The notes beneath the pieces were generated by a model that saw only the letters and a list, made by a program, of their open reading frames with translations, did not search any database and was not told the DNA's origin. Below, in pieces: positions 27,212-56,721 of a stretch of DNA of 64,000 nt. Position numbers and translations under genes: made by a program. This stretch comes from Octopus vulgaris. Lineage: Eukaryota. The DNA is taken from assembly GCA_951406725.2 (NCBI GenBank), contig OX597820.1, positions 43,710,001 to 43,774,000 on the forward strand. Direction: 5' to 3'. How positions within the stretch are numbered: the stretch's first letter is position 1; the number at the start of each line of letters is the position of its first letter.

Positions 27212-27890
27212 AACACAGACAGGTAAGAAAGAAAGAATGAAATGACGGCAATCTATCATACAATTTTAAGTTACCTACGGACGTAGGTGAGGCAATTCGT
27301 TGCTAAACCCTTAATTACTTAGTATTACTTAAATTTTCCTCGAATGGGGCTTTTACATGCCGAAATCTACTAGGTGTAATTGATAATTATTCCAAATTAA
27401 TTAATTTCACCCTTTATTATTACTGATAACCATATTTTATCCCAGTAAATGACCGCAGCATTTTGTCTTGGCTACACGCGGGTGGAAGGGGGCTGGTGAC
27501 ACAAACTTTCATTCAAACTTTGAATTTCGTGGTACTGGTCATGCTTTGGCTCGCTCTGACACTGAGTTGAGATAATGCCTTCTAGTATCTCAAAATTTAA
27601 TATACAATTATTCATAATTGTAGTATCCTGCGCCGATGAGAAAAGAAGTTTGGGTAAAGTAGAATTTTCTAATTCTTATGCTCTCCTAAAACTTGATTTC
27701 GAAACATACGTCCGTAGGTAACTTAAAATTGTATGATAGATTGCCGTCATTTCATTCTTTCTTTCTTACCTGTCTGTGTTTGCCTTTCAGGTGCTGTGTT
27801 TTTACTGAGATCCCCCTTTTAGTAGAAGGAATAGCTATATCTCTTTGACTGCTATTTCTAAATTCGGTGTGTTGGGGCAATTACTTAGTA
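27212..27890 (+). mobile_element. HHR-bearing non-coding element (retrozyme/Penelope pLTR-like), ~588 nt monomer with 74 bp inverted 5' arm
   Basis: 27212-27285 is the reverse complement of 27707-27780; unit start GGTGAGGCAATT (27286) recurs in shortened form at ~27874; second copy at 56245-56721. Confidence 0.75.
27627..27718 (+). ncRNA. Type I hammerhead ribozyme, CCGAUGA core, long helix II
   Basis: CCUGCG CCGAUGA GAAA..UUUC GAAAC AUAC GUC CGUAGG; predicted cut after C27712. Confidence 0.8.
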
Positions 27891-27912
27891 TATATATATA
27901 TATATATATATA

Positions 27913-28082
27913 ACGGCGGTGAGTTGGCAGAAACGTTAGCACGCCGGACAAAATGCTTAGCGGTATTTCGTCAACTTTCCCTTTTATCCTTTCGGGGACG
28001 ATAAATTGAGTACCAGTTGCGTACTGAGGTCGATCTAATCGATTGGCCCAAATTTCCGGCCTTATGCCTAGAGTAGAAAGGT
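27913..28082 (+). mobile_element. SINE family A, internally deleted
   Basis: Head and core match the family. Confidence 0.75.
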
Positions 28083-28132
28083 ATACACACATATATATAT
28101 ATATATATATATATATATATATATATATATGC

Positions 28133-28200
28133 CCGGATAACTGAAGAGATGGCGGCGTGGATTTCCACCTCGGCATCCGAAACTCGGAGTTTCATCATGG
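28133..28200 (+). ncRNA. Hammerhead ribozyme-like motif in a 170 bp insert between (TA)n tracts
   Basis: CCGGAUAA CUGAAGA GAUG..GUGGA UU UCCAC..CAUC C GAAAC UC G GA GUU UCAUCAUGG. Confidence 0.6.
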
Positions 28201-30589
28201 CTACCGAATAATTGTCACATATAACATTTATTATGTAAATTCTTCTAATTACATAATATCGAGGTCTTTTTCATTCTTTTGTTCTCTTACCATTTTATCA
28301 ATATATATATATATATATATATATATATAAGAAAAGTGGAGTTGTAGAGTACCGCACGAGTAGAATTATATACGAAAGAAGGTTTGAAAATGCAATTTAA
28401 AAGATGTCTATTTACATTAACGGTTTCCCTCTTTGGAAAAAGATTGTCAAAAGTAACAAGTAGAAGTTTGGTTGCGTTAATTATTGGTTGTTACAAATTG
28501 CTACATTACAGTCTTTGATCTCAAGGACATGCTTAATATAGTTTCCACAAGTAATTGATATTGGTATTGGTATTGTATCTGTATATTCAAACATGCACAG
28601 AATATTGGTAGACACAGAGTACTACAATCCATATAAATATACATTCTTTGGTGACAAGGGCATGTTGAGAATATAAAAAAGTTTAACAAGCTCATTGAAA
28701 TAATGGGCTCAAAAGATTACAACAAATATATTATACATTCTCAAGATAATTTCCAGAAGGAATTATTAAAAAAAGTTCAGTAAATATTGGTATACACGTA
28801 CAGAATGTTATGAAGCTAAAACTGACCTGTCAGTTTTAGCTTCACTACTATTATAATGTAAACCATTTTGAACTCATAATATTCTGTACGTGTATACGAC
28901 GAATTTATGGGAGATATTAGAAGAGGAACGGAAGACGGTAACACATGACTTGTGCAGGAAACTTAGGTCCTGTGTCAATCGTTATGCAAGGGTGATCTCC
29001 AACAAAGCTCTACAAAAGTCATACTAACTGTATTAAGTACATATTTACGCTTTTTTTTTTAAAGTTTTGTGTTAACTGAAGCATTTTTTGGCTTGATCAT
29101 ACTTTTATTTTACACGTGAGGCATTTGGAGGTAACATGTGTTAGAGTTATTAACTTTTATTATGACCATTATACAAATTTAGATTTTTCCCAGAATTTAG
29201 CTAATGATTAAACGTATTTACGAAACCAATTGCGAATTTGTACGCTTACTAGCTTTTACAAAATTAAAAAAATATTAATCGTTTTCTGTTTTAGCTCGCT
29301 ACTGTATGTATGTACGTATAAATATACATTCATACATACAAGCATAAGTAAATATTCATATACATATATATATATATATATATATATATATATGGATATA
29401 GATCTAGAGAAAGATATATATACTTATAAATATAAGTATATATAAATATAAATATAAATAAATATATAGATATATATGGATATAGATATAGAGAAAGATA
29501 TATATACTTATAAATATAAAAACAAATATTTATTCATAAGGAAAGCAATGAAAGAAGAACAAAGGTAGGTGAGAGAAAGATAGATATATTTTGTTGATGG
29601 TGTGGAACGTAAATATAAAATTGCTCAATACAAAATTTATTTACACCAAAATTAGTAGTTTCATATATGTTCATTTACACATACAACACGCACGCACATA
29701 CATGTACATACAGAACCGCTTATATATACATTTATATATCACACCTACCACACACAAACACACATATATGTGTGCATGTGTGTTATATATATATATAAAT
29801 AATAAAATAATAGCTGTATATATATATATATATATATATATATACACATATGTATATATATATATATATATTTCATACATACATACACACATACATATAT
29901 ATATACCTACACACATATACATATATATATATACTTATATTTATACATATACACACACATATATATATATATATATATATATATATATATATATGTATGT
30001 ATATGTATATGTATATATATGAATAAATATATATATGTATACATGCCTGTATGCACGGTGTTATTGTTACAATCGTATACTTGTTTCGTTATTATTATTT
30101 TTTTTTCTTCTTCTTCTCACATCAGGAAATGGAAAACCTGAACATAAAAGTTTGGTTGAGTTGTAAACAACATATACTGAGGTGTCAAGCTTGTTTGTTA
30201 TTCCACTAGGAAATATGTAAATATAGACAGAAATAAAGAAATAAATGTAAGCTTCCATTTCTTTATGACCTGCTGTCTCACAAACCAATACTTTACTTTG
30301 TTGACGGAGACACGTTTCCTTTATTATACTTGATTCTGTAGTGAATATTACGTCATAATTACGTCATAGATATTGTAATAGATAAAAACGACCACTCGTT
30401 ATCACGAAGTGATTGAAATTCATTACTTTGTTAGCTGCTCTCATGATAGATAAGCAACAAGCTAAATATCTCTCCAATTTAGATTCTCATTTGAAATCAA
30501 ACTCACTCACGTATAAGAGTATATGAGAAATGATTTTGTTTTTATTTTTCTAAAGAATTTTTAGGCTTGGGCAGTCTATGTAACATTTT

Positions 30590-30805
30590 TTACTATAGGC
30601 GCAAGGTCTGTAATTTTAAGGAAGGGGGCTAATCCATTTCATCGACCCCCAACACTGAACTTCTATTTACTTTATCGAGCTCGAAATGATGAAAGGCAGA
30701 GAGAGGAACTCGGCGGCGAAATTTGAACTCAGATCGTAAAATCTGACGAAACATTGCTAAGTAATTTGTCCAGCAAGCTAACGATTCTACGAGCTCACTG
30801 CCTTC
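30590..30805 (-). mobile_element. SINE family A, diverged
   Basis: Reverse-complement match to the family core. Confidence 0.7.
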
Positions 30806-54886: not shown

Positions 54887-54915
54887 TATTGTGTCTTAAT
54901 TTATGGTAATAAGAA

Positions 54916-55126
54916 AGCGGCGAACTGACAAAAACCGGTAACACGGCGGGAAAAAGCTTAGCGGCATTTCGTCAATCTTTACATTTTTCGTTCAAATTCC
55001 ACCGAGCTCAACTTTGCCTTTCATCCTTTTGGAGTCGATGAAATAAGCACGAGTTGAACACAGGAGTCAATGTAATCGACTTAGCCCCTCCCCCGAAATT
55101 GCTGGCCTTGTGCCAGAATTTGAAAC
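54916..55126 (+). mobile_element. SINE family A, diverged
   Basis: Head and core match. Confidence 0.7.
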
Positions 55127-55139
55127 CTATGTAAGGAAA

Positions 55140-55538
55140 TCTTTATATATAAAAGTCAAGTTGTGTGTCTGTCTCCTACGATTTAGATTCCTAACTACTC
55201 CCACATTTTGCGGTGCAGTTTAACCAAAACCGGGTATCTTATAGTCGTGATTCATATCGAGCCCTTCTGGGTATTAGCGCGCGTCTACGATGAGTCTACG
55301 ATTTAAAAAAAAATTTACCATCATTTTTTTCCATTTTAATGCATTTTTTTCGCTATTATATAAGGGAAGTAACTCTCTAAAAATGTCTACGATGAGTCAA
55401 CGATTTTGTAAAAAATTTACCATCATTTTTTTTTTCATTTTTAATGCATTTTTTTGCTATTTTTTGGCTATAATTCTCTAAAAATGCTTATATAGTTATT
55501 TCCCTTACAAACCCGAGCAACGCCGGGCGATATGCTAG
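55140..55538 (+). mobile_element. Non-autonomous Helitron (copy 3 of 3)
   Basis: A|TC..CCCGAGCAACGCCGGG..CTAG|T. Confidence 0.9.
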
Positions 55539-56244
55539 TGATTATATAAAAATATGCGTGGCGTTCTTTTACTGGATAATGAATATTTACAGTAAGAGCT
55601 GATTTGCCTCCTTTAGTTTCTCATTCTGCGTTGTATACTTTGTGTATGTTGAGCTAGATTTGATCATGATTGAAACGGGTACTAACAAAGTTTTTAGATC
55701 AAGGCAAAGTGTGTGAATTAGAGACGTTTTCCATATTTGATTAGTTCCTAAAAAAGGTAGATTTCAAACTGAAGCTGTAGGCCCTGTGTGACCTATTGTC
55801 ATGATTCACGAGTGTTTGACGAAATGAATGACAATTGAAACATCCAAATGAGTAACTAATGTGATTGTTTTAAATATTCCGTATCTTCTGCATATGGTAT
55901 ATTAGCCGTCAAATGTTCAGGTTTCTTTAATTCACGTACACATGAATTCAGAGCGCCGACTTCTGGATATATATTTGCGCATTCTCGGTTTTTAAGTAAC
56001 CTGCTAACATGAACGAAGTTGCCATCGCCTCAGATTGATAGATAGACATATAGATAGATTTATTCATACATGCATACATACATACATACATACATACATA
56101 AATACATACATACAAACATACCTACATACATATATGCATAAACATACACACATACGCATGTATATACATTGGTATATACATATATAGATATACATACATG
56201 CATTTAGATGTATATATATGTTTATACATATATATATATATATA

Positions 56245-56721
56245 GTTATCAGTAATAATAATAAAGGGTGAAATTACACGCGGGTGGAAGGGGGCTGGTG
56301 ACACAAACTTTCATTCAAACTTTGAATTTCGTGGTACTGGTCATGCTTTGGCTCGCTCTGACACTGAGTTGAGATGATGCATTCTAGTATCTCAAAATTT
56401 AATATACAATTATTCATAATTGTCGTATCCTGCGCCGATGAGAGAAGAAGTTTGGGTAAAGTAGAATTTTCTAATCCTTATGCTATCCTAAAACTTGATC
56501 TCGAAACGTACGTCCGTAGGTAACTTAAAATTGCATGATAGATTGCCGTCATTTCATTCTTTCTTTCTTACCTGTCTGTGTTTGCCTTTCAAGTGCTGTG
56601 TTTTTACTGAGATCACCCTTTTAGTAGAAGGAATAGCTATATCTCTTTGACTGCTATTTCTAAATTCGGTGTGTTGGTGAGGCAATTCGTTGCTAAACCC
56701 TTAATTACTTAGTATTACTTA
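56245..56721 (+). mobile_element. Second copy of the HHR-bearing element, between (TA)n tracts, with a short 5' inversion
   Basis: 56275-56677 matches 27473-27875; 56245-56276 is an inverted copy of 27402-27430; 3' end runs into the sequence that starts the 27286 unit. Confidence 0.8.
56429..56520 (+). ncRNA. Type I hammerhead ribozyme, CCGAUGA core, palindromic helix III
   Basis: CCUGCG CCGAUGA GAGA..UCUC GAAAC GUAC GUC CGUAGG; predicted cut after C56514. Confidence 0.82.

What the first reader, a model, noticed from the sequence alone, without database searches (positions are those of the whole stretch)
27627..56520. Compensatory base-pair change between two copies of one hammerhead, with a shared non-canonical C4 core
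Seen: the base of helix II is GAAA/UUUC at 27640-27700 but GAGA/UCUC at 56442-56502. Both partners changed (A-U to G-C) in otherwise very similar copies. Both have CCGAUGA instead of CUGAUGA, so C4 is a family trait rather than decay. The 56 kb copy has a fully palindromic helix III (ACGUACGU), suited to dimeric cleavage. Inference: selection acts on the RNA fold, and this is a natural core variant with a ~60 nt helix II.
Basis: partly seen in the sequence, partly recalled or inferred. Interest (0 to 1): 0.8.

Follow-up and report, generated by a model that had tools for sequence, protein, structure and literature searches.

The report
Retrozyme hammerhead with recurrent compensatory pair
The two stretches are solo copies of a roughly 590-base non-coding jumping repeat that carries a predicted self-cutting hammerhead RNA. 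One base pair switched from A-U to G-C in three separate lineages and one young branch carries a likely weakened core, so this is a well-supported variant of a known class (retrozymes) rather than a new system.

Summary
In detail: 27642/27698 (A/T) and 56444/56500 (G/C) are pair 10.3-11.3 of a type I hammerhead. The two loci are solo copies of sister subfamilies of a 583-591-bp non-coding tandem element. It has at least 854 pattern-matching copies, inserts in (TA)n, and is likely moved by a Penelope-like element (PLE).

Two copies alone cannot show selection, but the family supports it. A-U is ancestral and G10.3 arose three times (monophyly rejected, p-AU 3e-7). A G.U intermediate amplified (20 copies, 16 insertions); A.C was found in 0 of 854.

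- C4 marks one young derived clade (at least 327 copies); the older family has canonical U4.
- The palindrome is the family default, privately broken at 27.7 kb.
- U4C is already known from a viroid.

Seven insertions begin exactly at the predicted cut (about 1.4 expected), five of them in the C4 clade, hinting at cleavage in vivo. In 48 of 51 two-armed insertions each arm starts at a different one of two fixed sites. Cleavage and circles were not tested. The scan noted similar elements, some with CCGAUGA, on other DNA.

The parts
27627..27718 (+). Type I hammerhead, subfamily A1 copy. Helix I 27627-27632/27713-27718; core CCGAUGA 27633-27639 (C4 = 27634); helix II domain 27640-27700 (A10.3 27642, U11.3 27698); GAAA 27701-27704; helix III ACAUACGU 27704-27711 with private G>A at 27706; predicted cut after C 27712
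56429..56520 (+). Type I hammerhead, subfamily B1 copy. C4 = 56436, G10.3 56444, C11.3 56500, palindrome ACGUACGU 56506-56513, predicted cut after C 56514; private T>C at 56476
27283..27890 (+). Forward arm of insertion 1: about one circularly permuted unit (unit positions 399-591 then 1-441, with a short deletion near the 3' end), ending at site 1 in (TA)n
27196..27288 (-). Inverted arm of insertion 1 (unit positions 232-322); it begins 6 nt upstream of the predicted cut
56275..56720 (+). Forward arm of insertion 2 (unit positions 1-446), ending at site 1 in (TA)n
56240..56276 (-). Short inverted arm of insertion 2 (unit positions 518-554), ending at site 2 in (TA)n and carrying the TTTCACCCTT end motif shared with the autonomous PLE tail

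Best explanation
The two loci are single-ribozyme copies of sister subfamilies of a 583-591-bp non-coding tandem repeat that inserts into (TA)n, is likely mobilised by a Penelope-like reverse transcriptase, and carries a hammerhead predicted to cut only as a dimer. Steps: (1, inferred) tandem arrays are transcribed. (2, predicted) A lone hammerhead folds with its core paired to its own palindrome; two units would pair their ACGUACGU palindromes into the active helix III and cut after GUC. (3, inferred) Most cut monomers would be ligated into circles or stay uncut. (4, shown for the product, inferred for the enzyme) cDNA starts at two fixed internal sites about 100 nt apart, one per end of the target break, giving back-to-back arms of up to six units that mostly run through the cut site. 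(5, shown) Source lineages kept the base of helix II paired while changing its sequence: A-U to G.U to G-C in one lineage, and A-U to G-C on two further short branches. The window's difference is one of these. (6, shown) U4C arose once before the A/B split and was inherited by the youngest subfamilies; (inferred) it slows but does not abolish cutting.
For: Architecture: tandem spacing 583-591 bp, inverted 5' arms, longest open frame in a dimer 67 aa. 3' ends cluster at unit positions 430-459 (93 of 170 distinct ends) and 530-559 (59 of 170); nearly all of those listed run into (TA)n. 48 of 51 two-armed insertions with both ends at these sites use one of each (28 more had an end elsewhere). A young autonomous PLE (784-aa RT plus GIY-YIG frame, 150 of 150 scored hits near-identical) also ends in (TA)n at two sites, and its tail shares TTTCACCCTT just before the junction. 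Fold: unit sense strand z -4.9, antisense z 0.0. 98.3% of cells are paired over 18 named pairs in 23 rows, with three pairs changed on both sides. G.U 20 and A.C 0 among 854 matches. With the three columns masked, G10.3 monophyly is rejected. On the B stem and the L290 stem, 2 of 3 mapped changes are the two partners. Cutting: 7 of 11 hits are 5' junctions exactly at the cut, 5 of them in the C4 clade, against about 0.6-0.8 expected there. Private variants shared by all units of an array occur (5/5, 4/4, 4/4, 4/4).
Against: No cleavage, circle or expression data. Amplified subfamilies also carry pair-breaking changes: G10.1>A opposite C11.1, C.A at distal pair 24-64 in B2, and A.G at the same pair. 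Homoplasy is common (18 recurrent directed changes among 151 internal ones), and some shared changes between the U4 G-C lineage and the C4 clade suggest recombination. The L290 origin rests on one two-unit array. The G10.3 group was named after a first tree was seen. The junction excess has no same-pattern control at neighbouring positions; other positions reached 3 of 146 events in the sample, and 0 of 75 later passes stopped at the cut. The unit has no long homology to the one PLE family examined, only the short end motif. Core invariance is partly built into my search patterns.
Confidence: 0.78

Rival explanations
1. Helix II is selected as a structure (for RT, ligase or protein recognition, or RNA stability), while catalysis is vestigial. 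C4, A10.1 and the distal mismatches are then drift in a dispensable ribozyme, and arrays are copied from uncut linear multimers.
For: About 98% of cDNAs run through the cut site. Three weakening changes amplified. Catalytic hammerhead mutants did not affect PLE insertion in vitro (PMC11167929 passages). One insertion has an 8-nt deletion of helix III and the cut site in both arms (L202/L203).
Against: 5' junctions are enriched exactly at the predicted cut, including in the C4 clade. Helix I changes are all wobble-compatible, and the palindrome is kept in all subfamily rows (with ascertainment). Array-wide private variants fit a single circular template.
Confidence: 0.3
2. The paired changes come from a mutational mechanism and not from selection: template switching that copies one arm onto the other, ADAR editing, or recombination between subfamilies.
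For: Template switching can create compensatory changes in one step (PMC8794818 abstract). No G.U intermediate was found for two of the three origins (one search lists none with those inner haplotypes). Lineage-shared changes are enriched for A>G (24 vs 15 T>C, p 0.008). Signs of recombination exist.
Against: The mismatched loop next to the 4-bp stem is never corrected, although a switch primed from the neighbouring stem would correct it. Recombination would need two separate short tracts, because the sites between the partners keep the recipient haplotype. An amplified G.U grade is basal to G-C in one lineage. Private changes are biased to T>C (65 vs 22 A>G), which would favour the A.C route that is absent.
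Confidence: 0.12
3. The unit is simply the pseudo-LTR of an autonomous PLE family that I did not find, left behind as truncated tandem copies.
For: PLE insertions are tandem and inverted with hammerheads in pLTRs (PMC8557442 passages). 19,335 PLE candidates exist and only one family was examined closely.
Against: Arrays of up to six pure units with no coding DNA. In the loci scanned (L001-L090), PLE frames lie beyond (TA)n junctions and are not part of the unit. The examined PLE has a different, minimal hammerhead.
Confidence: 0.08

Closest known systems
Metazoan non-LTR retrozymes (Cervera and de la Pena 2020, PMC7229834, parts 2-4 of 6 read; Li, Clavereau and Pollet 2026, 10.64898/2026.07.22.740005, parts 1-3 of 5 read)
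   Same: Non-coding, low-GC tandem units with one type I hammerhead each, a short palindromic helix III, a strongly self-paired unit and co-occurrence with PLEs. The unit length is within the 51-972 bp range of the 2026 preprint.
   Different: 61-nt helix II domain, a U4C clade, and dispersed two-armed insertions primed at two fixed sites in (TA)n. Circles and cleavage are not shown here.
[quoted passage not shown]
   Same: [quoted passage not shown]
   Different: No ORF, a 6-bp helix I, a much longer helix II and no extra nucleotide after A9. The core variant described there is U3-A8, not C4.
U4C viroid hammerhead (Ambros and Flores 1998, seen only as cited in Perreault 2011, PMC3088659, passages and section 8 read)
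   Same: Same core substitution, reported to lower activity considerably in vitro yet to allow infectivity.
   Different: Here it is fixed in hundreds of genomic copies of an amplifying animal retroelement clade.
PLE tail and two-site internal RT initiation (Frangieh et al. by recall; PMC11167929, passages read)
   Same: Two internal start sites delimit a tail seen at insertion ends.
   Different: The tail is about 100 nt rather than 30-40 nt, in a non-coding element, with one site used per arm.

Membership tests
Type I hammerhead ribozyme | Three helices around the core, open at helix I | tested here: met
   (full Rfam model aligned; 18 bits, below the gathering score of 34 because of the insert)
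Type I hammerhead ribozyme | Canonical core CUGAnGA / GAAA / UH | tested here: not met
   U4C in both window copies; met in the ancestral U4 subfamilies
Type I hammerhead ribozyme | G10.1-C11.1 pair | tested here: met
   Both window copies; broken in one U4 subclade
Type I hammerhead ribozyme | Self-cleavage after C17 | not testable with these tools
   Indirect only: 7 junctions at the site against about 1.4 expected
Non-LTR retrozyme | Non-coding tandem units, each with a hammerhead | tested here: met
Non-LTR retrozyme | Highly self-paired unit RNA | tested here: met
   Sense z -4.9, antisense z 0.0
Non-LTR retrozyme | Expressed as linear and circular monomers | tested here: inconclusive
   Only contigs of runs not on record as RNA were available
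Non-autonomous Penelope-like element | Tandem/inverted 5'-truncated insertions with a tail and microsatellite targets | tested here: met
Non-autonomous Penelope-like element | 3' homology to an autonomous partner | tested here: inconclusive
   Only a 10-nt end motif shared with the one family examined
Autonomous PLE | RT plus GIY-YIG ORF between pLTRs | tested here: not met
   Longest frame 67 aa in a dimer

The most novel reading that the evidence does not exclude
Selection on this retrozyme keeps the hammerhead folded but tunes it down. U4C, and independently the G10.1>A mismatch in another lineage, would be favoured attenuations that let circles survive as templates for PLE twin-primed rolling-circle copying while still allowing rare dimer cutting. 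The family would then be a natural, dated allelic series answering how animal retrozyme circles avoid cutting themselves.
Probability: 0.2. Interest if true: 0.72.

Novelty: new variant of a known kind. Interest (0 to 1): 0.42.

Why it matters
It gives a clear case of the textbook A-U to G.U to G-C path, with the intermediate preserved as its own amplified subfamily, in a mobile ribozyme. It also gives genomic footprints for steps that the retrozyme papers I read propose but do not show: cut-site junctions, two fixed priming sites and array-wide variants. Cervera and de la Pena 2020 state that the hammerhead in metazoan circles is probably blocked in vivo by something other than self-pairing. 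The natural U4/C4, G10.1/A10.1 and A-U/G.U/G-C variants allow a direct test of whether slower cutting is tolerated or favoured. The class, compensatory changes in such families and U4C itself are all known, which limits the surprise.

Tried and rejected
1. 'C4 lengthens arrays' was rejected. In the first 100 matches (hand tally), C4-clade insertions hold 2.08 units and U4 insertions 1.22 (p 0.008). The excess is all subfamily B2 (3.2 units, 10 insertions); other C4 insertions hold 1.29 (14 insertions, p 0.95).
2. A lineage-versus-private (McDonald-Kreitman-like) test on core and stems was not significant (p 0.55-0.69) and is biased by pattern ascertainment.
3. Zero intermediates among 327 C4 copies is uninformative by itself, since few new single changes are expected in such young copies.
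4. Expression: no RNA holder is listed. Contigs showed no joints or molecule ends.
5. Cross-species laying showed both C and T at position 4 in four runs of other coded organisms, and only A at 10.3 in one of them. These are collapsed contigs and were not used as evidence.
6. No tRNA in L010. An Rfam E-value scan of the L010 dimer gave no hammerhead hit.
7. The ACCCT end motif before (TA)n in other repeats: 30 of 776 against a shuffled mean of 17 (maximum 27), but several hits are fragments of this family or the PLE, so it is weak.
8. No other C4 hammerhead family with convincing helices was found in the DNA held.
9. Ambros and Flores 1998 and Lunse et al. (PMC5785218) are not held. The latter, and the unseen supplements of the 2014, 2020 and 2026 papers, may list U4C or long-helix-II variants in PLE hammerheads.
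10. Literature searches: hammerhead+U4C gave 1 paper; hammerhead+CCGAUGA gave 1 unrelated paper; hammerhead+Penelope-like+Octopus and retrozyme+cephalopod gave only PMC8557442.
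Full report
Observation. The sequence is as described. The copies are 97.3% identical over 403 sites, and 27642/27698 versus 56444/56500 are the partners of pair 10.3-11.3. Helix I is CCUGCG/CGUAGG, the core is CCGAUGA...GAAA...GUC and the helix II domain is 61 nt. Rfam misses it at gathering score but aligns the whole Hammerhead_1 model to 56429-56520 as the best local hit.

What carries it. The window lies in a 2.8-Gb genome. Each copy has dozens of 98-99% matches, often in tandem at 588 or 591 bp and with inverted arms. The unit is non-coding and folds strongly only on the ribozyme strand (z -4.88 vs 0.03). 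A family-wide pattern counts 854 ribozymes; the DNA searches listed 1,395 and 1,708 candidates, of which 40 each were scored. Ends fall at two unit sites, and nearly all of those listed run into (TA)n (93 and 59 of 170 distinct ends). Among 79 two-armed insertions, 51 had both ends at these sites and 48 of those used one of each (p 2e-11). I ran this pairing test after reading scan note e1-8672319. Window insertion 2 has this form; insertion 1 has a site-1 arm and a short inverted arm. A young autonomous PLE (GIY-YIG below the curated Pfam cut-off; 784-aa frame) shows the same tandem/inverted, two-ended, (TA)n pattern. It shares TTTCACCCTT before the distal junction but has a different minimal hammerhead. 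Partnership is inferred.

The compensatory pair. With the C4 core fixed, G-C 243, A-U 84, G.U 0 and A.C 0. That alone reflects subfamilies. Across the family, G.U occurs 20 times in 16 insertions and A.C never among 854. Trees of 107 and 168 distinct units, and of a 77-row subsample of 284 with positions 4, 10.3 and 11.3 masked, rooted on the most diverged copy, make A-U ancestral. They place G10.3 in three places: a two-unit array (L290), a long-branched U4 lineage whose basal members are G.U, and clade B within C4. Monophyly of the 46 G10.3 rows is rejected (p-AU 3e-7; group named after the first tree). On the B and L290 stems, two of three mapped changes are the partners, and the sites between them keep the recipient haplotype. 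Further double changes occur at 10.2-11.2 (one old copy) and at distal pair 24-64 (U-A, U.G, C-G). Against this: three amplified subfamilies break a pair, homoplasy is frequent, and some recombination is likely. I conclude that the base of helix II is maintained by selection on source RNAs, with moderate constraint elsewhere.

C4. CUGAUGA with the same long helix II and palindrome gives 539 hits, mostly this family. C4 forms one clade (100/95 support), with one apparent CpG reversion among the rows. It arose before the helix I A>G change and before the A/B split. It covers at least 327 copies (50 of the first 100 listed carry the clade's haplotype). Its subfamilies are among the youngest (median within-class distance 0.8-1.3%, against 1.1-4.1% for U4 classes). 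So C4 is neither decay nor a family-wide trait. U4C is known from a viroid, with much lower in vitro activity but retained infectivity (PMC3088659 passages; the original was not held). A deep mutational scan found low activity for changes in the CUGA turn (PMC9901934 passages). Scan notes report CCGAUGA in other retrozyme families; I could not check them. With one origin here, advantage and hitchhiking cannot be told apart, and C4 does not lengthen arrays outside B2.

Helix III and dimers. ACGUACGU is standard in both subfamilies; the 27-kb copy has a private change. The palindrome duplex is predicted at -9.8 kcal/mol, against -2.1 for the changed form. Every monomer tested is predicted to pair its core with its own helix III strand, 2-3 kcal/mol below the open-core fold, for U4 and C4 alike. 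This matches the dimer design described for PLE hammerheads (PMC4209133). Both window copies are solo.

Does it cut? A pattern for the sequence just after the cut preceded by a non-C base gave 11 hits. Seven are clean 5' junctions (5 in the C4 clade, 2 in U4), one is ambiguous, two are a shared 8-nt deletion and one is C17U. The background from 148 C4 runs is 0.002 junctions per nt (146 events in 74,849 nt), giving 0.55-0.8 expected in the C4 clade (P about 0.001 or less) and about 1.4 family-wide (P 0.0005; 0.02 if the hazard is doubled). There is no same-pattern control at neighbouring sites, and local hot spots of 3 events exist, so this is a hint. About 98% of cDNAs read through the site, so templates are circles or uncut multimers. 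Private variants shared by all units of an array (31 such, against 161 single-unit and 10 partial, in 78 insertions) favour repeated copying of one monomer but could come from unsampled donors. Sequencing runs gave no usable evidence.

Comparison and verdict. It works like a metazoan non-LTR retrozyme mobilised by PLEs (PMC7229834; 2026 preprint), with a tail like that explained by two internal RT start sites (PMC11167929; PMC8557442). Compensatory changes in such families were noted in 2014. What I did not find in the searches run is U4C fixed in an amplifying animal element, or a phylogenetically resolved wobble path in one; two key papers and all supplements were unseen. Verdict: a real feature and a new variant of a known kind, interest 0.42.

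Noticed in passing
window 41063-41163 (-) and 41415-41515 (+): A second, unrelated hammerhead-like family with a canonical CUGAUGA core, a helix II domain of about 65 nt and a near-palindromic helix III, present as a near-perfect inverted pair.
   Followed up: no
window 15967-16243 (-): 3' fragment (96% identical) of the young autonomous PLE, with its minimal U3-A8 hammerhead and tail, ending in (TA)n.
   Followed up: partly
L200 (G000:C10:35253000-35259500): Full PLE with a 784-aa RT/GIY-YIG frame bearing a CX4CX2C linker (Neptune-like by the description in PMC8557442) and an overlapping upstream 446-aa frame; 150 near-identical hits.
   Followed up: partly
L200 reverse 6164-6501; L267: Another repeat about 69% similar to the unit's tail region, with an inverted structure; a probable related non-autonomous family.
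   Followed up: no
L065, L067, L070, L071, L086: Older, diverged hammerhead family (CUGAUGAU..., same ACGUACGU palindrome) with a 55-75-nt helix II.
   Followed up: no
L062, L069, L078, L105, L109: Amplified U4 subclade in which the conserved G10.1-C11.1 pair is an A.C mismatch.
   Followed up: partly
L094, L095, L285 and others (subfamily B2): B2 has markedly longer arrays (3.2 units per insertion) than its C4 sisters; unexplained.
   Followed up: partly
L202/L203 (G000:C2:75407472, 75407918): Both arms of one insertion lack the same 8 nt (helix III and the cut site). This is either slippage between CGTA repeats or trimming before circle ligation.
   Followed up: no
family-wide: Unit-private substitutions are strand-biased to T>C (65 vs 22 A>G), while lineage-shared ones favour A>G (24 vs 15).
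   Followed up: partly
window 23209-24727: Two tandem copies (about 710-bp period, 89% identical) of another repeat bounded by (ATT)n/(ATC)n runs.
   Followed up: no
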